Below, in pieces: positions 1,243 through 38,339 of a stretch of DNA of 64,000 nt. Position numbers and translations under genes: made by a program. The notes under the pieces were generated by a model. That model worked only from the letters and a program-made list of their open reading frames with translations, did no database searches and was not told where the DNA came from. The stretch's first letter is position 1, and every line of letters starts with the position of its first letter. This DNA comes from an uncultured Pseudomonadota bacterium (GTDB lineage Bacteria > Pseudomonadota > Alphaproteobacteria > RF32 > CAG-239). Location: positions 7,568 to 71,567 of the forward strand of contig CACWSG010000004.1 in the NCBI GenBank assembly GCA_902763535.1, in the 5' to 3' direction.

Positions 1243-2811
1243 CTAAAACAAACTTAATATAGAGTTACTTGATTCTGACGCTAAAGCTAAAGCGTTAACA
1301 GCAAGCTGTTGGCGTGTCTGTAAGGCTAGATAATTAGCACTTTCTTCATTTATTTCAGCCAAAACTAAATTATCAGCTCCGGTTTGCAAAACATCAATTA
1401 AGCCATCGGTAAAATTTTGTCTTGTTTTAATAATGGAAAAATCATTACCCAATTGCTCGCTAATATTGCGCAAAAGTTCTGTTGCATTCTGCAATTGCAA
1501 AATGGTATTTTGCATATCCTCTACATTATTCCATTTTGCTTTGGTTATCCCCAGTGACAACGCATCGGCATTTTTGCCCAAAATTACATATCCATTTGTA
1601 CGTGTCTCATTAAATATTACTGTAAGATTGTTACCATTGAGCAAATTAATACCTTGATAAGATGCATCGTTAATCATTTTGTTGAACGAATCATACATAT
1701 TGTTAAATTGCTGACATGCCCTACTAACTTTATCATCAACGACCCATGTTCCTTTATTGCCAGTGGTATATATTGCATTTAACTCAGTAGCCCTAATATC
1801 ATCAAGTCCTTCAACATTGTAAGTTCTAATATCCGATGTGCACCACTGCGCATAATTTGAACTACCGGTATAAGGAGTTCCTGGATTAAAATTATTAGGC
1901 TGATTATATGTACTAAACTTAAAATCCTTAAGATTGATAACTCTTGCTGATCCGCCATCATCAGACACCCATGTTACCACACCGACAAGAGTTTTAGAAA
2001 CATCACCAGGATTATAATCTCTTGCTGATCCATACGTCATATCGGAATACACAACATCGCCAATTATCGGAAAACCGTCATCACTAACAAATTTATTCTC
2101 CAATAATGTCAAGGCTCTTACATATAATCCGGTGCTTTTATTCGTTTCCGACACATTACCATTGCTCATTGATATAGTCAAAGCTGTATTATCACCGCTT
2201 TCTGATGATGACCAATACGTTCCCGTCCCTATGGTAGAGGATACACTTCTGTCTATATTATATAATTCTGTAAATGCTCTATTAATAGCAGTTTTATGAT
2301 TATAAATATCAACTAATTCACAAGCTGACGGCAAATACCATTTACCTTGCCCCCAATCACCATCATTAGAACTAACTCCAGGAGCATAAAATTGACTGGT
2401 AGCTCTTGCAGCTAAACCCTTCTCTTGTAATTGATCAATGATAATAGGTGAACTTACACGCCCATCAAACTCCGGATCCGCTTCAAAATATGAGGAAACA
2501 AAACTACTCATTGCCGTGGCACTAGCCATGGAATTCATTTGTTCAATCATTTTTAAACCGGCTTCAATTCCCTCGATAGATGCTTGAATAGTTTGAATAC
2601 TCTGTCCCATACTATCCAACAAAGCGTCTAAATCTTTGGAGCGATTCGACAATGCTCTTGACTGATAATAAGATGAGGCATTATCAATTGCATCATTTAC
2701 CTTTTTACCTGTTGACAACCTTGTCTGTGTCGTTCCCATTTTTTTATTAAGTGATTTCAACGACGACAAATTACTCCGCATACTGGCCGTTAATGTTATA
2801 TTGTTTGCCAT
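1243..2811 (-). CDS. Flagellin-family protein with a large non-flagellin central insert (DUF1566/Lcl-C-like)
   Basis: N-terminus ITLTASMRSNLSSLKSL..TQTRLSTGKKVNDAIDNASSYYQSRALSNRSKDLDALLDSMGQ and C-terminus NFTDGLIDVLQTGADNLVLAEINEESANYLALQTRQQLAVNALALA match flagellin D0/D1 helices. GGAGG lies 7 nt before the ATG. The centre carries W-Y-LPS..EL / YWSSSE / YVRAL motifs. Confidence 0.8.
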   Translation of the reverse strand: MANNITLTASMRSNLSSLKSLNKKMGTTQTRLSTGKKVNDAIDNASSYYQSRALSNRSKDLDALLDSMGQSIQTIQASIEGIEAGLKMIEQMNSMASATAMSSFVSSYFEADPEFDGRVSSPIIIDQLQEKGLAARATSQFYAPGVSSNDGDWGQGKWYLPSACELVDIYNHKTAINRAFTELYNIDRSVSSTIGTGTYWSSSESGDNTALTISMSNGNVSETNKSTGLYVRALTLLENKFVSDDGFPIIGDVVYSDMTYGSARDYNPGDVSKTLVGVVTWVSDDGGSARVINLKDFKFSTYNQPNNFNPGTPYTGSSNYAQWCTSDIRTYNVEGLDDIRATELNAIYTTGNKGTWVVDDKVSRACQQFNNMYDSFNKMINDASYQGINLLNGNNLTVIFNETRTNGYVILGKNADALSLGITKAKWNNVEDMQNTILQLQNATELLRNISEQLGNDFSIIKTRQNFTDGLIDVLQTGADNLVLAEINEESANYLALQTRQQLAVNALALASESSNSILSLF

Positions 2812-2940: not shown

Positions 2941-2950
2941 GGGGGGGGGG
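2941..2950. repeat. G10 (C10 on the coding strand) homopolymer about 130 nt upstream of the flagellin-like gene
   Basis: Directly visible run gggggggggg in an AT-rich intergenic region. On the minus strand it reads TTGTTG-C10-gatagga-(a)TAATAT. Confidence 0.9.
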
Positions 2951-13984: not shown

Positions 13985-14820
13985 GAGAAACCTAAAATTC
14001 TCGGTTGTTTTTTTATATATCCCCCTCGGACACTTTTTTATTGTCATCCTTGGGGACGCGTTTTTTTTATATGTCATCCTTGGGGACGCGTCAGCGTAAC
14101 CCGAGGATCCAAGCAAATTAGATTCAGAATAGATTCTCGGGTCATACACTCAGTGTATCGCCCGAGAATGACTTTTGGACACTTTTGGTCACTCAAAAGT
14201 GTCAATAATATAAAAAAATTCGAAGATGCCTAATTCGCTCATTTCACTCGCTCAGGCATGACAAAAAACTGTCACCCCTGAAGCCCCTCTACTGTCACCC
14301 TCGGACTTGGAGTCGATAGTTGGCGAGAACAAGGCGCTAGCCGCAGTTCAAGGCTTACGAGACGAAAGGGGCCCAGCTTCGTTGGGAATATCCATCCGAG
14401 GGTCAAACAAATTATCTTCGATTCTCGGGTCAAGCCCGAGAATGACATAAAAGAAAATAAGCCCAAGAATGACAGAAGAAAAATATCGCCCGAGAATGAC
14501 TTTTTATATAGGGTTTGGGATTGCGAGACAAGCGGAATAAGCAAACAGCGAAAAGGCTGGCAAAGATTTGCTTTATGCGGCTTTTGTCGGGCGCGTAAGT
14601 CGCCTGTAAATAAGCCGCAGCCTTATGCCTTTGAGCTGTTTGCCCGCTTGGCGAACAGCCCAATGACTTTTGGACACTTTTGGTCACTCAAAAGTGTCAA
14701 TAATATAATAAAATCGGAAGATGCCTAATTCGCTCATTTCACTCGCTCAGGCATGACAAAACCGGTAATGTCACCCCTGAGTGGTTTGCCAAAACCACGA
14801 ATTAGGGGTCTTCGATGTTT
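13985..14820. repeat. Repeat-dense non-coding region made of several hairpin-repeat families
   Basis: gtcatccttggggacgcg appears twice. (c)ccgagaatgac/attctcggg inverted copies appear at least 5 times. A unit of about 115 nt (approx 14167-14281 and 14662-14780) contains gacacttttg-gtcact-caaaagtgtc and atgcct-aattcgctcatttcactcgctc-aggcat hairpins. Confidence 0.85.
14511..14663. mobile_element. MITE-like 153-nt self-complementary element, copy 1
   Basis: Matches 16653-16805 with 2 mismatches, same orientation. Imperfect terminal inverted repeats (ttgggattgcgagacaagcgg / ccgcttggcgaacagcccaa). Nested internal pairings gcaaacagc/gctgtttgc, aaggctg/cagcctt, tgcggctt/aagccgca. Confidence 0.7.
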
Positions 14821-16526
14821 TAGAACAATTTCAACACTGCATTATTGGATTGTGCCGCTAAGGCAAGAGCATTGACTGCTAATGAATTTCTAGTTTGCAA
14901 AGCAAGATAATTTGCTGACTCTTCATTCATATCCGCCAATACCAAATCATCAGCACCAGTCTGTAATACATCAACCAAACCATCAGTGAAATTCATGCGT
15001 GTTTCAATGATACTTAAATTGTTGCCCAACCTTGCAACCTCATCACGAATAGAAATCATTGCATTTTGAATTTCTTTGATGCTTGCGGCAATATCGCCTT
15101 TGGTCTGCCACTCGCGAGTTGTAATGCCCAATCCGCTCAAGCTCATATCTTTGCCGTTAATAGTATAACTATGCGTGCGGTCTTCATTAAACATTGTGGT
15201 CAACTTGCCGCCTTTGAGCAGGTTGACACCTTGATAACTACTGTCTGATATCATCTCATCAAAAGCACTCATCGCCGTCAAATATTGCTCCGCGCTTTGC
15301 GCTAAAACTTTTTCATCAGCTCGCGGTTCGGCAGTCGGATAAACAAATTGCTCATCTTCAGCCATTCTCTGCACATTCAAAAGGCTTTGAATATTTGATG
15401 CTTGTATATTTTGATTTATTAAACTGGCATCTTCCATCACTTCATAACTTCGCCCACCAACCGTAACATGTGCTCCTTTAGCATAATTAATAACAACCAT
15501 ATTGCTTTCATAGGCCCCTCTTATAGCATTACCCAAAACATCAGCCGAAGCAGCTATATTAACAGTTCCACCTTCACAACCCCACCACCCGTTATTAAAC
15601 ATTTTTCCTTCTATATTTAATACACCATTACTGCAACACAAAACCCCAAAACCTTGAGTTTTGCAGGTTAATTTAGCTCCACTTTTTATCATCATATTTG
15701 CATTGTTTCTAATACCGCGGTTTTGGTTGTCTCCCATAGTTTTAAGATTAACATTTCCTTCAATGGATAAATTCCCCAGATTATAAACAGTGTATGACCA
15801 ATTTGAGCGAATTGGATTGTCTTGATTTATTTCTACATTCTTGATAGTCATCGTTCCATTGTTGCGCAAACAACTATTTGCTGATGAATTAGTGGTAGCA
15901 AAATTGATACTCAAATCCGATATCAAATTGTTTGCCGTGGTATTATTAGCTAACATAATAATGTTACGAGTGCAAGAGGCACTTATCGATGAGAATTTAT
16001 CTATCTCGCTGTCAAAATCGCCAAAATATCCGACACCGACCAGTTTTTGGTTATCATTTAAGGTTAAACCGGAAGTTATTTCGCCCATATCGATATGCCC
16101 ATAAACACAAATGGTTTCCTTGTTAGCATTGACCGCATCTTTGAGCTCTTGTGCTGTTGATACAACCGCGCCATTAGGGCCGACTTGAGCTTCAAACCAA
16201 GCCTTTTCCGGTATGATTGCTGCCTCGTATGCTTCTTTGGCAATCACCGCGGCATTTTCCAATATCTCGCCGCTGGCTTCTAAGCCTTTTACCGCCGTGG
16301 TAATAGTCTGGATACTTTGCCCCATGCTATCAAGGAGCATATCAAGGTCGCTTGCTCGGTTGGTCAAAGCTCGGCTTTGATAATAAGAGTTGGCATTATC
16401 AATCGCTGAGTTCACTTTTTTGCCGGTAGAAAGTCGTGTCTGGGTGGTGGACATCTGACTTGCCAACGACTTCAAGGAACTCAAGTTGCTGCGCATACTG
16501 GAGGTCAAAGTTATGTTAACAGACAT
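14820..16526 (-). CDS. Flagellin-family protein with beta-helix-like central insert
   Basis: True start is ATG 16526 (MSVNITLTSSMRSNLSSLKSL..), preceded by AAGGAGGGGG. The track ORF to 16808 is read-through of the repeat. Flagellin N- and C-terminal helices are present (..NFTDGLVDVLQTGADDLVLADMNEESANYLALQTRNSLAVNALALA). The centre has N.G.l.I-type repeats. Confidence 0.8.
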   Translation of the reverse strand: MSVNITLTSSMRSNLSSLKSLASQMSTTQTRLSTGKKVNSAIDNANSYYQSRALTNRASDLDMLLDSMGQSIQTITTAVKGLEASGEILENAAVIAKEAYEAAIIPEKAWFEAQVGPNGAVVSTAQELKDAVNANKETICVYGHIDMGEITSGLTLNDNQKLVGVGYFGDFDSEIDKFSSISASCTRNIIMLANNTTANNLISDLSINFATTNSSANSCLRNNGTMTIKNVEINQDNPIRSNWSYTVYNLGNLSIEGNVNLKTMGDNQNRGIRNNANMMIKSGAKLTCKTQGFGVLCCSNGVLNIEGKMFNNGWWGCEGGTVNIAASADVLGNAIRGAYESNMVVINYAKGAHVTVGGRSYEVMEDASLINQNIQASNIQSLLNVQRMAEDEQFVYPTAEPRADEKVLAQSAEQYLTAMSAFDEMISDSSYQGVNLLKGGKLTTMFNEDRTHSYTINGKDMSLSGLGITTREWQTKGDIAASIKEIQNAMISIRDEVARLGNNLSIIETRMNFTDGLVDVLQTGADDLVLADMNEESANYLALQTRNSLAVNALALAAQSNNAVLKLF

Positions 16527-16652
16527 AACCCCCTCCTTTTTATTATAACTAATTCGTAGACCCCTAATTCGCTCCTTACAGTCGCTCAGGGGTGACAGGT
16601 GGTGAAATAGACCCCTAATCTTGCTCAAGGGGTGACAGTTTAAAGATTCATC

Positions 16653-16894: not shown

Positions 16895-16902
16895 GGGGGG
16901 GG
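16895..16902. repeat. G8 (C8 on the coding strand) homopolymer upstream of flagellin-like gene 2
   Basis: Visible run. Minus strand reads TTGAGT-gtta-C8-atggaa-TATCTA (18-nt spacer). Confidence 0.9.
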
Positions 16903-27207: not shown

Positions 27208-28269
27208 ATGAAGTTTTTGGATCAAGCTAAAATATATGTTCAATCGGGTAATGGCGGCGCAGGTTGCGTTTCATTCCGCCATGAAAAGTATATTGAGTTT
27301 GGCGGACCTAACGGTGGAGACGGCGGCAAAGGCGGCAGTGTTTATGTTGAAGCAGTGCCTAATTTGAACACTTTAATCGATTTTCGTTACCATCAACATT
27401 TTAAGGCTCAAAAAGGTCGCAACGGTATGGGTTCGGAAAAAAATGGACCCAAAGGCGAAGATTTGATAATAAAAGTTCCGGTTGGTACCGAAATTTTGGC
27501 TGATGATCAAGAAACGGTTATTGTTGATATGGTTGAAGACGGACAGCGATTCTTGTTGGCCAAGGGCGGCGATGGTGGTCGCGGCAATACCCAATTCAAA
27601 ACTTCAACCAATCAAGCTCCGCGTTATGCTGAGCCGGGATGGCCCGGTGAAGAAAAATGGGTTTGGTTGCGCCTGAAAGTTATTGCTGATGTCGGATTGC
27701 TGGGTTTGCCGAATGCCGGTAAGTCAACTTTTCTATCGGTAGTATCCAAAGCGCGTCCCAAGATTGCCGATTATCCTTTTACCACGATTCATCCCAATTT
27801 GGGTGTAGCTTGGGTTAACAACTACGAAATGGTCATAGCTGATATTCCGGGGTTGATTGAGGGTGCTCATGACGGAGTCGGTTTGGGTGATAGATTCCTA
27901 AAGCACGTTGAACGTTGCTATGCTTTGTTGCATTTGGTAGACGGAACTTCGGAAGATGTTGCCAAATCCTATCTTGATATTCGCAACGAATTAGCTTTAT
28001 ATGATCAAAAATTGGCTGACAAGCCTGAAGTGGTTGCTTTGAGCAAAATAGATGCTCTTGATGAAAAAGAGATTGCCCGAAAAAAGAAAGAACTGGAAAA
28101 AGTTTCTCACAAAAAAGTTTTTGTTATTTCATCTGTTGCCAAACAAGGTGTTTATGAGTGCCTAAACGAGGTTAATCAATTTATTACCCGCGATCGTAAA
28201 CAAAAAGATGAAATTCAACTTCAAACTACCGAAACCCAAGAAAACAATACGGCATGGTCGCCGATTTAA
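27208..28269 (+). CDS. obg: GTPase Obg/CgtA
   Basis: [28 protein letters not shown] Obg fold. G motifs [22 protein letters not shown]. Confidence 0.9.
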
Positions 28270-31559: not shown

Positions 31560-32332
31560 GCTTGTTCCTTTACAAATTCGGAATATCCGGTGCGTTCCAG
31601 CTCTTCTGCTAAATCTTTGTTGCCGGTTTTAACAATTTTGCCGCCGGTATATACATGCACAAAATCAGGCACAATATAGTTTAACAGTCTTTGGTAGTGA
31701 GTAATAACCAACAATCCGCTTTGCGGGGTGCGGCAGGCATTAACCCCTTCGCCGATAATACGCATGGCATCAATATCAACACCGGAGTCCGCTTCATCCA
31801 AAATTGCCAAGCAGGGGCGCAAAATTGCCATTTGCAAAGTTTCCAATCTTTTAGCCTCACCGCCGGAAAAACCGACATTTATTGAGCGTTTCAACATATC
31901 AGCATTAAGATTCAGCTTACGGCCTTCTTCACGCAGCAGTTTCATAAATTCCACGGTGTCCATTTCTTTTTCGCCGCGATAAGCTCGCAGACTGTTTAGG
32001 GCGTGTTTCAAAAACGGAGTGATGGATACTCCCGGAATTTCAACCGGTTTTTGCATCGATAAGAACAAACCTTCACGAGCTCTTTCTTCGACCGACATTT
32101 GCAATAAGTCTTTTCCCTTAAACAAGACTCTGCCGGAAGTTACTTCATAACCCGGCTTGCCGCATAACACATAGGATAATGTCGATTTTCCGGCACCGTT
32201 CGGGCCCATGATGGCATGAACTTCACCTTCATTAATGGTCAAATTAAAACCTTTGATAATTTCTTTATTTTCAACTTTGGCATGCAAGTCTTCAATTTCG
32301 AGTAGAGGTTTGCTCATTTTTGTGCACTCCAA
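31556..32332 (-). CDS. sufC: Fe-S cluster assembly ATPase SufC
   Basis: Walker A GPNGAGKST, signature FSGGEAKR, Walker B AILDEADSG. Start may be the internal MSKPLLEIEDL (32317). Confidence 0.95.
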   Translation of the reverse strand: MECTKMSKPLLEIEDLHAKVENKEIIKGFNLTINEGEVHAIMGPNGAGKSTLSYVLCGKPGYEVTSGRVLFKGKDLLQMSVEERAREGLFLSMQKPVEIPGVSITPFLKHALNSLRAYRGEKEMDTVEFMKLLREEGRKLNLNADMLKRSINVGFSGGEAKRLETLQMAILRPCLAILDEADSGVDIDAMRIIGEGVNACRTPQSGLLVITHYQRLLNYIVPDFVHVYTGGKIVKTGNKDLAEELERTGYSEFVKEQA

Positions 32333-32589
32333 TCATCCAATCTTTGCTCAATTTTTTGCAGTTTTTGTTCTTTGTAATCAGCCACTTGTTTATGGATATT
32401 ATAGCAATATTTTAATTGTTCCAACATAATTTCGACATCGGCAGTTTCTTCAATAATCTCATCCACATTATCTTTGTGCCGATTAATGTTTTTAAGTATT
32501 TCTTTAATCAGTTCGCTCATTTCTTCAATAACTTGCAGCATTTGCGGCTCTTTGCCCCAAGTTTTTAAGGCTCTTTCATAAGTGTTCAT
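32314..32589 (-). CDS. Small MazG-like (all-alpha NTP pyrophosphohydrolase-type) protein inserted between sufB and sufC
   Basis: 91 aa. The start abuts the sufB stop and the end overlaps sufC. EEMSELIKEI ... IIEETADVEIMLEQL resembles the EExxE...ExxD metal motif of MazG-type domains. Confidence 0.45.
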   Translation of the reverse strand: MNTYERALKTWGKEPQMLQVIEEMSELIKEILKNINRHKDNVDEIIEETADVEIMLEQLKYCYNIHKQVADYKEQKLQKIEQRLDDWSAQK

Positions 32590-34044
32590 CTATCCGACAC
32601 TCCCTTCTAAACTTATGTTGATTAATTTGGCTGCTTCAATTGCAAATTCCATCGGCAGTTTTTGCATAACTTCTTTGCAAAATCCGTTTACGATAAGACT
32701 GATAGCCTCTTCTTCGGATATACCGCGTTGACGGCAATAAAAAAGTTGTTCATCCGATATTTTGGAGGTTGTAGCTTCATGTTCCAGTTGAGCAGTTTTA
32801 CAGCGGCTTTCTATATATGGCACAGTATGAGATCCGCAAGTTGCTCCAATCAAAAGACTGTCGCAACGCGTATAATTGCGGGCATTAGCGGCACTGGCAG
32901 CGGCTTTGACCAATCCGCGGTAGGTTTGGTTAGAAAATCCGGCGGAAATACCTTTTGATATAATACGAGAAGAAGTGTTTTTACCGATATGAATCATTTT
33001 GGTGCCGGTATCAGCTTGTTGACGATTATTGGTCAGGGCAACCGAATAAAACTCACCACATGAGTTGTCGCCCTGTAACACACAAGACGGATATTTCCAA
33101 GTAACGGCCGAACCTGTTTCGACCTGAGTCCATGAAACTTTGGAATTTACGCCGCGACAAGCGGCTCGTTTGGTTACAAAGTTATATACACCGCCTTTGC
33201 CTTCTTTGTCACCGGGATACCAGTTTTGCACGGTAGAATATTTTACTTCGGCATTATTCAACACCACTATTTCGACTATTGCCGCGTGCAGCTGATTCTC
33301 ATCGCGTTGCGGTGCCGTGCAACCTTCAAGATAAGAAACATAACTATCATCATCGGCTACAATCAATGTGCGCTCAAACTGACCGGTATTGCGGCTGTTG
33401 ATGCGAAAATAGGTCGATAATTCCATCGGACAGCGCACGCCTTTGGGAATATACACAAAAGTACCGTCGGTAAACACTGCTGAGTTAAGACAAGCAAAAA
33501 AATTGTCGGTGTAAGGTACGACAGAGCCAAGATATTTTTGCACCAAATCAGGATATTCTTTGATTGCTTCGGAAATTGAGCAGAAAATAATGCCTTTTTC
33601 TTTGAGTTGTGCTTGATAAGTCGTCGCTACCGAAACACTGTCAAAAACAGCATCAACCGCAACGACTCCGGCCAAAGCCTCTTGCTCTTTTAAGGGAATT
33701 CCAAGCTTTTCATAGGTCTTGAGAAGTTCTTTATCAACCTCATCCAAACTTTTAGGTGCAGTTTTTTGTTTGGGCGCCGAGTAATAGGCCAAAGCTTGAT
33801 AATCTATTGCATCATACTTTAGTTTTGCCCAATGCGGTTCCTTCATGGTCTGCCAAAATTCAAAAGCTTGCAATCGCTTTTGCAGCAGCCATTCCGGTTC
33901 ACCTTTTTTGTGCGAGATTATGCGGATAATATCGGCATTCAAGCCCGTTGGTACCGTATCGGCTTCAATATCTGTAACGAAGCCGTACTTATATTTATCT
34001 CCGCTTTCATCTGCGATTTGAATTTCATTTTTTGTATCAGTCAT
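32590..34044 (-). CDS. sufB: Fe-S cluster assembly scaffold SufB
   Basis: 484 aa with [19 protein letters not shown] and [21 protein letters not shown], typical of SufB. Confidence 0.95.
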
Positions 34045-34143
34045 GACACAAGGAAATTAGTTTCTTTTTTTGATAAAATCAACCGATATTTGCTTTAAAA
34101 TCAGCTTTATTTAGAAAATATTAAGTCTTAAAGGCATATCATA

Positions 34144-35070
34144 ATGCAGGTTTATGATAAGTTGAGAGTATTTATGCGCGCCAGAATATGGACTATTTTA
34201 ACCATTCTTTTGCTCGTCGGTGCCTGTTCGAACGGAGCCCGCATCGGCAATTATACTTTGTGGGGAGGTTATAGTAATTATACAAGCGGCGCGTCAAAGG
34301 TAGTAGTTCGCAAAGGTGATACATTATACAGTATAGCCAATCGCAATAATGTACCGTTACGCAGTCTTATTGAAACCAATAATCTTTATCCGCCATATAC
34401 CTTAAAAGTCGGGCAAACTTTAAGATTGCCGGCAGCTAAATACCATATTGTTGCCAAAGGCGATACATTGTATAACATATCCAAACGCTACAATGTCGAT
34501 ATGCCGAAACTCAGTGCTGAAAATAACTTGAGCGCGCCTTTTACCTTAAAATTAGGACAAAAGCTCACTATTCCTGATAGTCTCTATACCAAAAGTTCGA
34601 CTAAGTCTGTCTCTTCAACTAAAAAGACAACTAAAAGCTCAACCCCTTCCCAAAGTGTGACCAAATATTCCTATGTCCAACCTTCAACCAACCGCAAGCA
34701 AAAATTTGACTGGCCGGTAAAAGGGCAGGTAGTCTCCGGTTATGGTCCGATTGCTAAAGGGCGCAATAATGATGGTATCAACATCAAAGCGCCTGCCGGT
34801 ACTGCAGTAAAAGCAGCAGACTCGGGCACGGTTGCTTATGCCGGTAATGAGCTGAAAGGATTCGGCAATTTGGTTTTGATAAAACATGATGATGGTTGGG
34901 TAACTGCCTATGCCCACAACCAGACCCTTAAAGTGAAAAAAGGTCAGAAAGTTAAGCGTGGTGAACAAATAGCCACAGTCGGTTCTACCGGCGGGGTAGG
35001 GACACCGCAACTGCATTTTGAAACTCGTGCCGGCAAAAAAGCCCTTAATCCGCAAAATTATCTGCGTTAA
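34144..35070 (+). CDS. nlpD: LysM-repeat M23 peptidase lipoprotein (NlpD-like)
   Basis: Lipobox LLLVGAC (start possibly 34174). Three LysM repeats (V..GDTLY.I..R....). M23 core GINIKAPAGTAV.. GNLVLIKHDDGWVTAYAH .. GSTGGVGTPQLHFE. Confidence 0.8.
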   Translation: MQVYDKLRVFMRARIWTILTILLLVGACSNGARIGNYTLWGGYSNYTSGASKVVVRKGDTLYSIANRNNVPLRSLIETNNLYPPYTLKVGQTLRLPAAKYHIVAKGDTLYNISKRYNVDMPKLSAENNLSAPFTLKLGQKLTIPDSLYTKSSTKSVSSTKKTTKSSTPSQSVTKYSYVQPSTNRKQKFDWPVKGQVVSGYGPIAKGRNNDGINIKAPAGTAVKAADSGTVAYAGNELKGFGNLVLIKHDDGWVTAYAHNQTLKVKKGQKVKRGEQIATVGSTGGVGTPQLHFETRAGKKALNPQNYLR

Positions 35071-35106
35071 AGCATAAATAAATCTCATCTATGTGACAAA
35101 AAAACC

Positions 35107-35135
35107 TTGACTTTTGTCTACGGGGGGGGTATAAT
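35107..35135 (+). promoter_or_regulatory. Near-consensus sigma-70 promoter with a G8 tract in the spacer
   Basis: TTGACT (35107-35112), 17-nt spacer tttgtctacGGGGGGGG, TATAAT (35130-35135). Confidence 0.65.
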
Positions 35136-35161
35136 GAGATTAACATTATAACCAAACATAG

Positions 35162-36223
35162 ATGAGGATAAAGGAAATGAACTTAGACTTTACATTTTTG
35201 AAGGAAGATCAGATATGGGGCGATGATGCCCTGGAAGTAATGAAGAAGTATGGCACGAAGGTTGCGCCAACGGATCTGACCGTTATATTGGGTGTCTGTA
35301 TGAGCGGTATGAGCGGTTGGGGTGAGCTTTATTATAATTATAAAGGTTATTTAGCTTGTACTACCCCTGAAGGCGATTTAACTTGTGGCTCTTGGTCCGC
35401 GTCTTCGGGTGAGGATGGGAGCGTGCGTTGCGTCGGCTATAATGGTTATAATTACTGTTATCTACCGAATGTACGTATAAGCTCGGCGCACCCCGCTTTG
35501 CCGCAAAAGGAGGCATCTAAAATCAGCCCGAGCGAAGCGAAGGTTATCGATGGAATCCGCGTAGCGGAATATGGGGAATACCCGCAAACGGTCGCCGATG
35601 AGCGCACTAGCGAGAAATTAGAAAGATTACATGGCTCAAACTCTCTTCGTTCGACCGGAAAAAATTACACATTTGATTCAGTTGAATTAGAAAATTATGA
35701 TACCCCTTTTAAGGCTATATCCTACCCCGAATATGAAATGGATGGCAAAAGGTATATTCGTGTCCCCGGACGGCCTGCTGACGACGATAGTAAGTTATCT
35801 ACCGGGGAACAAGTAGAGGAAGGGAAACCATACTGGGTTGAGGTTCAACCGATAGAATGGTTGATGGACAGAAGTGGCACCATGGTGGCCAGGAAATGTT
35901 TGTTCGCCGGTATTCAGTTTGATACAAAAAGCTCGTATGATGGTGATTTTAAGGGAACGTTCATGAAACATTATTTGGATACCTATTTTGCCAAAGAAAT
36001 GCAACCTTTAGAACGCACAAATGTAAAAGAAAATTCAACGAAAAAGACAGATGATGATCCCGCGACAAAAAGAATTAAAAAAATAAAAGAGCAAATGTTG
36101 CGCACTATTGCCGCCGAAAATGTATCACCCCAAAAAGGTGTGGTAAAACGCAAACGCTCTGATGCTGAGAAACAAATCATTAAAGCAGCGTTAGATAGTG
36201 CATCTAAAGGTATCGGAAGATAA
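35162..36223 (+). CDS. DUF6273-like protein with basic C-terminal tail
   Basis: APTDLTVILG ... VRISSAHPAL ... EYGEYPQTV ... VQPIEWLMD resemble the TDYA / RPAL / YPQ / IEW.VL motifs of DUF6273 proteins. No signal peptide seen. Alternative SD-preceded start at 35177 (MNLDFTF). Confidence 0.55.
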   Translation: MRIKEMNLDFTFLKEDQIWGDDALEVMKKYGTKVAPTDLTVILGVCMSGMSGWGELYYNYKGYLACTTPEGDLTCGSWSASSGEDGSVRCVGYNGYNYCYLPNVRISSAHPALPQKEASKISPSEAKVIDGIRVAEYGEYPQTVADERTSEKLERLHGSNSLRSTGKNYTFDSVELENYDTPFKAISYPEYEMDGKRYIRVPGRPADDDSKLSTGEQVEEGKPYWVEVQPIEWLMDRSGTMVARKCLFAGIQFDTKSSYDGDFKGTFMKHYLDTYFAKEMQPLERTNVKENSTKKTDDDPATKRIKKIKEQMLRTIAAENVSPQKGVVKRKRSDAEKQIIKAALDSASKGIGR

Positions 36224-36253
36224 TTTTATTTTCAGTTAGCTAAATTTTATTCC

Positions 36254-36290
36254 AGAGGTGACAATACTGTTTATTGTTACCTCTTTTTTT
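36254..36290 (+). terminator. Intrinsic terminator of the DUF6273-like gene
   Basis: 13-bp stem agaggtgacaata/tattgttacctct (one G.U) followed by T6. Confidence 0.65.
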
Positions 36291-36422
36291 GGATTCTCAA
36301 TTTATCCCATTAATATTTCCCCTCTTATACAAAAAATAACTTGTGAAATAATAAAAATTTCCCTATATATGCTTTAGAATATGTTATATAGTGTAGAAAA
36401 ATTTTAAAACGGAGTTGAGAAT

Positions 36423-36785
36423 ATGTTTATCAGTTCAGCTTTGGCGGCCGATATGGCAGCCTCATCTGCGGGCGGAGTGTCCAGCATGATTATTCAGTTG
36501 TTGCTTATATTTGCAATTTTCTATTTGTTGTTGATTCGTCCCCAACAAAAACGCATTAAAGAGCATGAGGCTAAAATCAATGCTCTCAAAAAAGGCGATG
36601 AAATTATTACCGGTGGCGGTATTGTTGCCAAAGTCGTTGAGATTAACGAAGCTGACGATGAACTGAAGGTTGAAATTGCCTCCGGCGTTGTAATCAGAAT
36701 TGCTCGTCCTACTGTGCGCGAGGTTTTAACGGAAGAGCTTAAGTCGGCTGATAACAACAATAAAAAAACTAAAAACAAGAAATAA
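36423..36785 (+). CDS. yajC: Preprotein translocase subunit YajC
   Basis: Single TM plus FYLLLIRPQQKR motif. Precedes secD. Confidence 0.85.
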   Translation: MFISSALAADMAASSAGGVSSMIIQLLLIFAIFYLLLIRPQQKRIKEHEAKINALKKGDEIITGGGIVAKVVEINEADDELKVEIASGVVIRIARPTVREVLTEELKSADNNNKKTKNKK

Positions 36786-36794
36786 GGTGTAGAA

Positions 36795-38339
36795 ATGTAC
36801 AAATTGTCAAAATCACGAATTATAATCATCTTGGCTATATGTTTGGTCGGGTTTTTCTTTGCTTTGCCTAATGTTATGCCAAATAAAGATGCACTTCCCA
36901 AATGGTGGCAGCCTGTTAGTTTGGGACTCGATTTGCAGGGCGGATCCAACCTTTTGTTGGAAGTAAAATTAGATGAAGTCTTAAAGGAGCGTATGTCATC
37001 AATTGAGGATTCGGCTCGTCAGATTTTGCGTGAAAACAAGATTCGTTACAAGAGCATTACCTCAAATGAGAATGGGGTTAAGGTTATAATTGACAATGCC
37101 GGATCGCGCACCAAAGCGGCCGGATTGTTCCGCAAAATTGATGAAGGTATCATTGCAAACGAAACAGAAGATGGCGGGTTGCTTATCAATTATAGTGAAG
37201 TGGCAATTAATCAGTTGAAAGCTAAAGTTGTTGAACAGTCAATTGAGATTGTTCGTCGTCGTATTGATGAACTTGGCACCAAAGAACCTTTGATTCAATC
37301 GCAGGGCACCAGCCGAATTGTTGTTCAACTTCCCGGATTGCAAAATCCTGAACAAGTCAAAGCTTTGCTAGGCAAAACCGCTAAAATGTCGTTCCACCTG
37401 GTTGACAGCAATGCCAAAATGTCAGATGCCAAACGCGGTATGGTCGGCGGAAAATACAAACTGGTTTATGGTGAAATGGGCGAGCCTTATTTCGTAACTC
37501 GCAAGCCGGTTGTCGGCGGCGAAAATTTGGTTGATGCACAAGCCACATTCCAAAACGGTGAGGCAGTGGTCTCTTTCCGTTTTAATTCATTGGGTGGTAA
37601 AAAATTTGGCGAAGCAACCAAAAACAATATTGGTGAAAGATTGGCCATCGTTTTGGATAACGAGGTAATTTCTGCTCCCACTATTCAGGGGGCAATTATG
37701 GGTGGATCCGGTGTCATTACCGGCAACTTTACTATTCAGTCGGCCAATGATTTGGCTTTGTTGTTGCGCTCCGGTGCTTTGCCTGCTCCGTTGGAGGTTT
37801 TGGAAGAACGCACGGTCGGGGCCGGATTGGGCGCCGATTCGATTAAGGCTGGTGTTATCGCTTCCATTATCGGACTTATAGCTGTTGTTGCTTTTATGCT
37901 TGCGGCCTATGGACTGTTCGGTGTGTTCACTACCATTGCCGTATTTACCAACCTGATTTTGATGATGGCCGCCTTGAGTGTGTTGGGTGCTACTTTGACT
38001 TTGCCCGGTATTGCCGGTATGATTTTGAGTATCGGCATGGCGGTTGATGCTAATGTTTTGATTTTTGAACGTATGCGTGAAGAGGTAAAAGGCGGTCGCT
38101 CGACTCGTGATGCTGCCGATGCCGGATTTAACGAGGCTTGGGCAACTATTGTCGATTCTAACTTAACGACCTTGGTTGCGGCTTTGGTTTTGTTCTATTT
38201 TGGTACCGGACCGGTCAGAGGCTTTGCCGTTACTTTGGCAATCGGTATTGCGACCTCGATGTTTACATCTGTAACAATTACCCGCGTGATTATTACAACA
38301 TGGCTTAACAAATATAAGCCTACCAAGTTGCCTATATAG
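36795..38339 (+). CDS. secD: Protein translocase subunit SecD
   Basis: 514 aa, LGLDLQGG motif, C-terminal 6-TM RND-like domain. Confidence 0.9.
   Translation: MYKLSKSRIIIILAICLVGFFFALPNVMPNKDALPKWWQPVSLGLDLQGGSNLLLEVKLDEVLKERMSSIEDSARQILRENKIRYKSITSNENGVKVIIDNAGSRTKAAGLFRKIDEGIIANETEDGGLLINYSEVAINQLKAKVVEQSIEIVRRRIDELGTKEPLIQSQGTSRIVVQLPGLQNPEQVKALLGKTAKMSFHLVDSNAKMSDAKRGMVGGKYKLVYGEMGEPYFVTRKPVVGGENLVDAQATFQNGEAVVSFRFNSLGGKKFGEATKNNIGERLAIVLDNEVISAPTIQGAIMGGSGVITGNFTIQSANDLALLLRSGALPAPLEVLEERTVGAGLGADSIKAGVIASIIGLIAVVAFMLAAYGLFGVFTTIAVFTNLILMMAALSVLGATLTLPGIAGMILSIGMAVDANVLIFERMREEVKGGRSTRDAADAGFNEAWATIVDSNLTTLVAALVLFYFGTGPVRGFAVTLAIGIATSMFTSVTITRVIITTWLNKYKPTKLPI

What the first reader, a model, noticed from the sequence alone, without database searches (positions are those of the whole stretch)
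35107..35135. G8 tract inside the 17-nt spacer of a near-consensus promoter: candidate phase-variable switch
The sequence is TTGACT (35107-35112), then tttgtctacGGGGGGGG (17 nt), then TATAAT (35130-35135). It lies 27 nt before ATG 35162 and 42 nt before the SD-preceded ATG 35177. The downstream gene is monocistronic, with its own terminator at 36254-36290.

A homopolymer between -35 and -10 is the classical slipped-strand rheostat, as in Neisseria porA/opc and Haemophilus hif. G8 gives the optimal 17-nt spacing, and G7 or G9 would weaken the promoter. Runs of 8 or more G/C occur only three times in this window, each in a promoter-like spacer.
Basis: partly seen in the sequence, partly recalled or inferred. 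Interest (0 to 1): 0.75.

Follow-up and report, generated by a model that had tools for sequence, protein, structure and literature searches.

The report
Variable poly-G tract inside a promoter
A run of eight G's sits between the two recognition boxes of a strong-looking promoter in an uncultured rumen alphaproteobacterium, and its length differs (8, 9 or 11) between otherwise identical strains, so it is most likely a slippage-driven dial on an accessory gene of unknown function, a well-known kind of switch seen here in a new organism and gene.

Summary
TTGACT (35107-35112), a 17-nt spacer ending in G8 (35122-35129) and TATAAT (35130-35135) lie 41 nt upstream of the real start codon, ATG 35177.

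In 12 independent metagenome assemblies of the same species, the tract is G8 in eight, G9 in three and G11 in one. The surrounding DNA is otherwise identical: there are no other differences across 3.5 kb upstream in two of the variants. None of the 21 A/T runs of 7-9 nt gains or loses a base. A second tract (G10, 2941-2950, upstream of a flagellin-like gene) also varies, as G8, G9 or G10.

The -35 and -10 hexamers are conserved in a sister species that has no homopolymer. Paralogues carry sigma-70 promoters with 17-nt spacers at the same position.

The downstream gene (348 aa) has no Pfam, NCBIfam, PHROG, PADLOC or PDB relative. Its confident AlphaFold model has no structural match. Its alleles are hypervariable. 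Together with its promoter and terminator it forms a roughly 1.26-kb cassette that is absent from relatives about 90% identical.

The best explanation is a promoter-spacer phase or rheostat switch of the porA / fetA / T. pallidum tp0126 type. No effect on expression has been tested. It is a new member of a known kind, of moderate interest.

The parts
35107..35112 (+). -35 hexamer TTGACT
   Evidence: Identical in sister species L097/L022.
35113..35129 (+). 17-nt promoter spacer (tttgtctac + G8)
   Evidence: The spacer becomes 18 nt in L010/L012/L015 and 20 nt in L014.
35122..35129 (+). Hypermutable poly-G tract (G8 here; G9 and G11 in other assemblies)
   Evidence: It is the only indel, and in L012/L014 the only difference, across 31644-35225.
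35130..35135 (+). -10 hexamer TATAAT
   Evidence: Conserved in L097.
35164..35168 (+). Shine-Dalgarno GAGGA, 8 nt before ATG 35177
   Evidence: Read from the sequence. Homologues have GGAGG at similar spacing.
35177..36223 (+). 348-aa protein of an uncharacterised family. The core (residues 1-275) is conserved. Residues about 39-100 are hypervariable. The C-terminal tail is variable and basic.
   Evidence: No Pfam, NCBIfam, PHROG, PADLOC or PDB hit. AlphaFold model pLDDT 84 with no Foldseek match. dN/dS is about 1 in residues 39-100.
36254..36290 (+). Intrinsic terminator (13-bp stem followed by T7)
   Evidence: Deleted in L002 and L003.
35072..36335 (+). Approximate extent of the promoter-gene-terminator cassette between nlpD-like and yajC. 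It is absent in relatives about 90% identical.
   Evidence: L192, L194-L196: nlpD is followed directly by yajC.
2941..2950 (-). Second variable tract (C10 on the gene's strand), 130 nt upstream of flagellin-like gene 1243-2811
   Evidence: G8, G9 and G10 occur among assemblies, and the tract is the only difference in the 460-nt intergenic region.
16895..16902 (-). Third tract (C8 on the gene's strand), 370 nt upstream of flagellin-like gene 14820-16526
   Evidence: The length is the same in the two other contigs that cover it.

Best explanation
The G tract is a hypermutable simple-sequence repeat in the spacer of the sigma-70-type promoter that drives a self-contained accessory gene cassette.

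Proposed mechanism:
- Slipped-strand mispairing during replication adds or removes G's.
- This changes the -35/-10 distance: G8 gives 17 nt (optimal), G9 gives 18 nt and G11 gives 20 nt.
- Transcription of the 348-aa gene is thereby turned up or down heritably and reversibly. This is a phase-variation rheostat of the porA / fetA / tp0126 type.

Shown here:
- the promoter-like anatomy;
- conservation of the hexamers in a sister species;
- the prevalence of 17-nt spacers at paralogues' promoters;
- variation restricted to the tract among near-identical strains.

Inferred, not shown:
- that this is the active promoter;
- that tract length changes expression;
- that switching is frequent and reversible within a population;
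- that it is adaptive.

An adaptive role is consistent with the gene's hypervariable alleles and its presence/absence polymorphism, which suggest a product under diversifying pressure from host, phage or competitors.
For: Anatomy: TTGACT-N17-TATAAT scores 11/12. It lies 41 nt upstream of the ATG, an SD is present, and the gene has its own terminator.

Tract variation: 8 assemblies have G8 (ERR3211460, ERZ1038122, ERZ28613096, ERZ28613845, ERZ28614710, ERZ27279976, ERZ913632, ERZ27280590). Three have G9 (ERZ920186, ERZ28613745, ERZ1062265). One has G11 (ERZ1029115).

Background:
- L012 and L014 have no other difference from the window over 31644-35225.
- L010 has one SNP in 2.6 kb.
- L012 and L014 carry nearly the same allele but G9 and G11 respectively.

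Control: the 21 A/T runs of 7-9 nt covered by the same contigs never gain or lose a base; the few shorter readings are substitutions in divergent alleles or relatives. Two of the three G tracts vary.

Run-length distribution: G/C runs of 6-7 are depleted (1 against 8.9 expected). Runs of 8 or more are enriched (3 against 0.41 expected).

Promoter conservation:
- Sister species L097/L022 keeps TTGACT, the first 8 spacer bases and TATAAT while the rest of the intergenic region has diverged.
- Paralogues have TTGACA-N17-TATAAT, TTGCAG-N17-TATACT and TTGCTT-N17-TAAAAT at the same position.

Precedent:
- fetA poly-C and porA poly-G between -35 and -10 (PMC5320596).
- T. pallidum tp0126 poly-G between -35 and -10, optimal at 17 nt (PMC7864442).
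Against: - There are no expression data, no mapped TSS and no read-level data, so within-population switching was not observed.
- Some ENA assemblies may be re-assemblies of the same samples, so the 12 are not all strictly independent.
- An 11/12 promoter match is not rare by itself (4 observed against 2.6 expected).
- The sister species has a 15-nt non-repetitive spacer (tttgtctaaagggag). The gene therefore tolerates a non-optimal, fixed spacer, and the tract is a recent acquisition, not a conserved device.
- There is no terminator between nlpD and the promoter, so read-through could give tract-independent expression.
- The product has no signal peptide or known surface or R-M function, unlike typical phase-variable genes.
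Confidence: 0.7

Rival explanations
1. The tract is mutationally unstable but functionally neutral. It arose by expansion of a G-rich spacer (aaagggag in the sister species). Its length changes have little effect on expression, or the changes are not selected. On this view the tract is a by-product, not a switch.
For: - The sister species lacks the homopolymer and has a 15-nt spacer.
- The cassette is dispensable, being absent in L192 and L194-L196.
- G/C runs of 7 or more are no denser in or upstream of family genes than elsewhere in related loci: 5 of 18 independent runs fall in 23% of the DNA.
Against: - -35/-10 spacing is one of the best-established determinants of sigma-70 promoter strength. 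A change from 17 to 20 nt is very unlikely to be silent.
- Short G/C runs are strongly depleted in this window while three long ones persist, all intergenic.
- The modal length is the optimal one.
Confidence: 0.2
2. The length differences are sequencing or assembly artefacts at a poly-G homopolymer.
For: - Poly-G is error-prone on some Illumina chemistries.
- One contig (L009) breaks 10 nt after the tract.
- Coverage of the contigs is unknown.
Against: - The same length recurs in independent assemblies made with different assemblers: G8 eight times and G9 three times.
- The differences reach +3.
- Lengths track strain alleles: L012 and L015 share an allele and both have G9.
- T8 and T9 runs are invariant.
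- The second tract shows three reproducible lengths, paired consistently with the first tract by sample.
Confidence: 0.05
3. The tract acts through something other than hexamer spacing. One possibility is that it lies in the 5' leader of a read-through transcript from nlpD. Another is that it serves as a protein-binding or structural element, as proposed for opc or the tpr genes, where the tract overlaps or precedes the -35.
For: - There is no terminator between nlpD (which ends at 35070) and the tract.
- The two flagellin-linked tracts are not in recognisable sigma-70 spacers yet at least one of them varies.
Against: - The tract lies exactly between two near-consensus hexamers that are conserved across species.
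- The cassette as a whole, promoter included, is gained or lost as a unit.
Confidence: 0.05

Closest known systems
Neisseria meningitidis porA (poly-G) and Neisseria fetA/frpB (poly-C) promoter-spacer phase variation
   Same: - A G/C homopolymer lies between the -35 and -10 hexamers of a sigma-70 promoter.
- Tract length differs between strains.
- 17-nt spacing gives the high state (PMC5320596; PMC7864442).
   Different: - The host is an uncultured rumen alphaproteobacterium.
- The target is not a known outer-membrane protein but a protein with no signal peptide and an unknown fold.
- No expression data exist.
- The tract here abuts the -10 hexamer directly.
Treponema pallidum tp0126 (OmpW homologue) poly-G between -35 and -10, and the poly-G tracts upstream of the tpr genes
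   Same: - A poly-G of about 7-11 lies in a promoter.
- Transcription is optimal when the spacing is 17 nt.
- Eight G's is the permissive state and longer tracts are poor (PMC7864442).
   Different: In T. pallidum, in-vivo length heterogeneity and reporter effects were measured. Here only between-assembly variation is shown.
Contingency loci in the sense of Moxon (simple-sequence repeats in Haemophilus, Neisseria, Campylobacter, Helicobacter)
   Same: - There are several long G/C tracts against a background depleted of such runs.
- The tracts vary between strains.
- They are linked to flagellin-like genes and to a hypervariable accessory gene.
   Different: - Only three tracts in 64 kb were examined.
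- The genome-wide repertoire and the mismatch-repair status are unknown.
- The organism is a commensal of the rumen, not a pathogen (statement from general knowledge of the concept).

Membership tests
SSR-mediated transcriptional phase variation, promoter-spacer type | Homopolymer long enough to slip (about 7 or more G/C) | tested here: met
   G8 at 35122-35129.
SSR-mediated transcriptional phase variation, promoter-spacer type | Tract located between recognisable -35 and -10 hexamers upstream of the regulated gene | tested here: met
   TTGACT-N17-TATAAT scores 11/12 and lies 41 nt before the ATG. The hexamers are conserved in L097. Paralogues have promoters at the same place.
SSR-mediated transcriptional phase variation, promoter-spacer type | Tract length polymorphic among strains while the flanks are conserved | tested here: met
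   G8 in 8, G9 in 3 and G11 in 1 of 12 assemblies. There are 0-1 other differences in 2.6-3.5 kb of flank. The A/T-run control is negative.
SSR-mediated transcriptional phase variation, promoter-spacer type | Length heterogeneity within a clonal population (high-frequency, reversible switching) | not testable with these tools
   No reads are available. Only a contig break next to the tract (L009) was seen, which is weak.
SSR-mediated transcriptional phase variation, promoter-spacer type | Transcription starts at this promoter and its level depends on tract length | not testable with these tools
   This needs 5'-RACE and reporter fusions.
Contingency gene (product under diversifying or fluctuating selection) | Product is variable between strains and interacts with the environment (surface, host, phage) | tested here: inconclusive
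   - Alleles are 73-77% identical within one species, with a sharp boundary at 35226.
- dN/dS is about 1 in residues 39-100.
- The cassette shows presence/absence polymorphism.
- However, the function and location of the product are unknown, and it has no signal peptide.

The most novel reading that the evidence does not exclude
The 348-aa protein would belong to a large, unannotated family with a new fold. The family has 488 or more members in gut and rumen Alphaproteobacteria and some Bacilli; some are fused to ankyrin repeats and some genomes carry several copies. On this reading the members are diversifying host- or phage-interaction factors, and different lineages have independently placed them under poly-G/C control at different levels.

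- Promoter spacer: this window, and L074 (TTGACT-tttaC8tgt-TAAAAT).
- Shine-Dalgarno position: the human-gut group, with G7, G8 or G9.
- Coding region: L042, L067 and L073.

Together with the variable tracts upstream of flagellin-like genes, this would reveal a contingency-locus repertoire in an uncultured commensal lineage.
Probability: 0.2. Interest if true: 0.65.

Novelty: new member of a known kind. Interest (0 to 1): 0.45.

Why it matters
Promoter-spacer homopolymer switches are textbook in a few pathogens (Neisseria, Treponema, Bordetella, Mycoplasma). They are hardly documented in uncultured gut or rumen commensals, where invertible promoters have had most of the attention.

This case shows that public metagenome assemblies alone can validate a candidate SSR switch. 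It also flags an abundant, completely uncharacterised protein family as likely to be under fluctuating selection. The family has a confident new fold, hypervariable alleles and a cassette-like gain/loss pattern.

The case also points to variable tracts next to flagellin-like genes in the same organism. If confirmed, it would add a tractable example of stochastic gene control in rumen Alphaproteobacteria and a lead to the function of the family.

Tried and rejected
- **Paralogy with the other 353-aa ORF (27208-28269):** none.
- **ATG 35162 as the start:** no gene call on record uses it, and homologues start at the codon equivalent to 35177.
- **Function of the protein:** Pfam (single sequence and 27 members), NCBIfam, PHROGs, PADLOC, PDB sequence profile, Foldseek against PDB and against BFVD all returned nothing significant.
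- **JGI metagenome pattern scan for the promoter with a variable gap:** 0 hits.
- **Rfam on the whole window:** only one tRNA.
- **Alignment of the two flagellin upstream regions:** only a short shared motif after the C tract.
- **Sigma-70 scan over the two other tracts:** no site spans them. My hand reading of TGTTrC-N17-TAATAw on the minus strand is weak and unsupported.
- **Enrichment of G/C tracts at family genes:** not significant.
- **P0003 and P0002 as alleles of this locus:** rejected. P0003 is the orthologue in a sister species and P0002 sits in another genomic context.

Full report
**1. The observation**

The sequence is as described:
- TTGACT at 35107-35112;
- a 17-nt spacer, tttgtctacGGGGGGGG, with G8 at 35122-35129;
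- TATAAT at 35130-35135.

The consensus scan scores it 11 of 12, the best site in 34000-37000. Across the whole window, 11/12 sites are not rarer than chance: 4 were observed against 2.6 ± 1.6 in first-order Markov simulations. The promoter call therefore rests on position and conservation, not on the match alone.

The coding start is ATG 35177, not 35162. All gene calls on record and all homologues begin there (MNLDFTFL...). GAGGA at 35164-35168 is a well-spaced Shine-Dalgarno.

The terminator at 36254-36290 is a 13-bp stem followed by T7, with a folding energy of -17.6 kcal/mol and z = -4.0.

G/C runs of 8 or more occur three times, against 0.41 expected. Runs of 6-7 occur once, against 8.9 expected. 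Each deviation was reached by about 0.3% of simulations. The distribution is bimodal, as expected if incidental slippery runs are purged and a few are kept.

**2. The decisive test: tract length in other assemblies**

Exact-protein look-ups of the 348-aa product, the upstream NlpD-like protein and YajC returned contigs from 12 different assemblies that cover the promoter.

| Tract | Assemblies |
|---|---|
| G8 | 8 |
| G9 | 3 (L010, L012, L015) |
| G11 | 1 (L014) |

The lengths were read.

- In L012 and L014 the tract is the only difference from the window across 31644-35225 (3.5 kb). Dense divergence, about 19%, starts abruptly at 35226.
- L010 differs by one SNP and one extra G in 2.6 kb.
- L012 and L014 carry almost the same allele but have G9 and G11.
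- As a control, none of the 21 A/T runs of 7-9 nt covered by the same contigs gains or loses a base; the few shorter readings are substitutions in divergent alleles or relatives.
- One contig (L009) ends 10 nt after the tract.

The tract is therefore specifically unstable, and an assembly artefact is unlikely. The same lengths recur with different assemblers, differences reach +3, and lengths track strain alleles.

**3. Is it a promoter?**

The sister species (L022/L097, with the same sufB-nlpD-gene-yajC-secDF synteny) keeps TTGACT, the first eight spacer bases and TATAAT, while the rest of the intergenic region has diverged. Its spacer is the non-repetitive tttgtctaaagggag, 15 nt long.

Paralogues and orthologues in other rumen Alphaproteobacteria have sigma-70-type promoters at the same distance from the start, nearly always with 17-nt spacers: TTGACA-N17-TATAAT, TTGCAG-N17-TATACT, TTGCTT-N17-TAAAAT and TTGACA-N17-TACACT. 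This supports two points:
- this clade uses E. coli-like promoters for this family;
- 17 nt, the G8 state and the commonest one, is the optimal spacing.

G9 gives 18 nt and G11 gives 20 nt, which by established sigma-70 rules should weaken the promoter progressively. This step is inferred; no TSS or expression data exist.

**4. The gene and its setting**

The organism is an uncultured rumen alphaproteobacterium. The contigs come from rumen metagenome studies, and relatives are titled as Alphaproteobacteria MAGs from yak, sheep, goat and cattle.

The 348-aa protein belongs to a family of at least 488 proteins. The family has a conserved core of about 275 residues and variable, basic C-terminal tails. 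Some members are fused to ankyrin repeats, and several contigs carry more than one copy.

It has no match in Pfam, NCBIfam, PHROGs, PADLOC or PDB sequences. The AlphaFold model is confident (pLDDT 84, pTM 0.76), mostly beta, and has no significant Foldseek hit in PDB or BFVD.

Within the species the gene is hypervariable:
- alleles are 73-77% identical at the protein level, next to a 100% identical NlpD;
- dN/dS is about 1.0 in residues 39-100, 0.5 in the core, and 0.05 in secD.

Relatives at about 90% nucleotide identity (L192, L194-L196) have nlpD followed directly by yajC. The promoter, gene and terminator (about 35072-36335) therefore form a cassette that is gained or lost as a unit. Two strains (L002, L003) have deletions that remove the terminator.

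**5. The other tracts**

The G10 tract at 2941-2950 lies 130 nt upstream, on the minus strand, of a flagellin-like gene (Flagellin_N). It is G8 in three assemblies, G9 in two and G10 in three. It is again the only difference in the 460-nt intergenic region.

The G8 tract at 16895-16902 lies 370 nt upstream of a second flagellin-like gene, whose true start is ATG 16526. It has the same length in the two other contigs that cover it.

**6. Other family members**

L074 has TTGACT-tttaCCCCCCCCtgt-TAAAAT upstream of its family gene. A human-gut orthologue group has G7, G8 or G9 immediately before the ATG. L042, L067 and L073 have G7-G9 inside the coding region.

The density of such runs in and upstream of family genes is not higher than elsewhere in those loci: 5 of 18 independent runs fall in 23% of the DNA. 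I therefore treat this as a lead, not a finding.

**7. Comparison with known systems**

The anatomy and the strain-to-strain variation match the promoter-spacer class of phase variation:
- fetA poly-C and porA poly-G between -35 and -10 (PMC5320596);
- T. pallidum tp0126, where a poly-G between -35 and -10 gives optimal transcription at 17 nt;
- the tpr genes, where 8 or fewer G's is the permissive state (PMC7864442).

Three defining features were tested and met: tract length, position between the hexamers, and polymorphism with conserved flanks. Two cannot be tested here: within-population switching, and dependence of expression on tract length.

**8. Verdict**

My confidence is about 0.7 that this is a functional promoter-spacer rheostat. 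The rival readings score about 0.2 for an unstable but inconsequential tract, 0.05 for an artefact and 0.05 for another mechanism.

It is a new member of a known kind. Interest is moderate (0.45). It is raised somewhat by the unknown-fold, hypervariable, cassette-like target gene and by the flagellin-linked variable tract in the same organism.

Noticed in passing
window 2941-2950 (and L090, L091, L104-L110): A G10 tract lies 130 nt upstream, on the minus strand, of flagellin-like gene 1243-2811. It varies as G8, G9 or G10 among assemblies and is the only difference in the 460-nt intergenic region. Gene callers call a small ORF across the tract that overlaps the flagellin start: 62 aa with 10 C's, 73 aa with 9, and none with 8.
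   Followed up: partly
window 16895-16902: A G8 tract lies 370 nt upstream of a second flagellin-like gene (14820-16526, minus strand; true start ATG 16526). It shares the motif GGAATA..CTAAnAAAATCAAT after the tract with the first flagellin locus. No length variation was seen in the two other contigs that cover it, and many contigs break in this region.
   Followed up: partly
window 35226-36230: There is a sharp recombination boundary. L012, L014 and L015 are identical to the window up to 35225, then about 20% divergent through the gene. dN/dS is about 1 in residues 39-100 and about 1.6 in the C-terminal tail. Downstream, secD shows dS of about 0.17 with dN/dS 0.05.
   Followed up: yes
window ~35072-36335: The whole promoter-gene-terminator unit is missing in relatives about 90% identical (L192, L194-L196), where nlpD is followed directly by yajC. 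The junction is A-rich and has no clear direct repeats.
   Followed up: yes
window 36236-36348: Two strains carry deletions that remove the intrinsic terminator: L002 lacks about 36248-36348 and L003 lacks about 36236-36300. In those strains the variable promoter could read into yajC-secDF.
   Followed up: partly
L074 1140-1180; L045/L055/L137/L141/L142/L144/L149 just before the ATG; L042 3227-3234; L067 2953-2961; L073 3099-3105: Other members of the protein family carry G/C tracts:
- C8 in a TTGACT-N15-TAAAAT spacer (L074);
- G7-G9 at the Shine-Dalgarno position in a human-gut orthologue group, with length differing between contigs;
- G7-G9 inside the coding region, in frame.

These are not statistically enriched relative to the flanking DNA.
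   Followed up: partly
whole window: G/C runs of 6-7 nt are strongly depleted (1 observed against 8.9 expected). Runs of 8 or more are enriched (3 against 0.41 expected). All three long runs are G on the plus strand and all are intergenic.
   Followed up: yes
window 1243-2811 and 14820-16526 (minus strand): Two flagellin-like proteins (522 and 568 aa) have conserved N- and C-terminal helical ends and large, unrelated central inserts. One insert has a weak Lcl_C hit. The flagellin alleles also differ between strains (L104 517 aa; L109 divergent).
   Followed up: no
window 16527-16640; L092 and L095 upstream of flagellin 2: Short repeated elements (TAGACCCCTAAT...GGGGTGACAG) lie upstream of flagellin 2. 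L092 and L095 carry an insertion of about 95 nt just before the Shine-Dalgarno that the window lacks. Several contigs end here.
   Followed up: no
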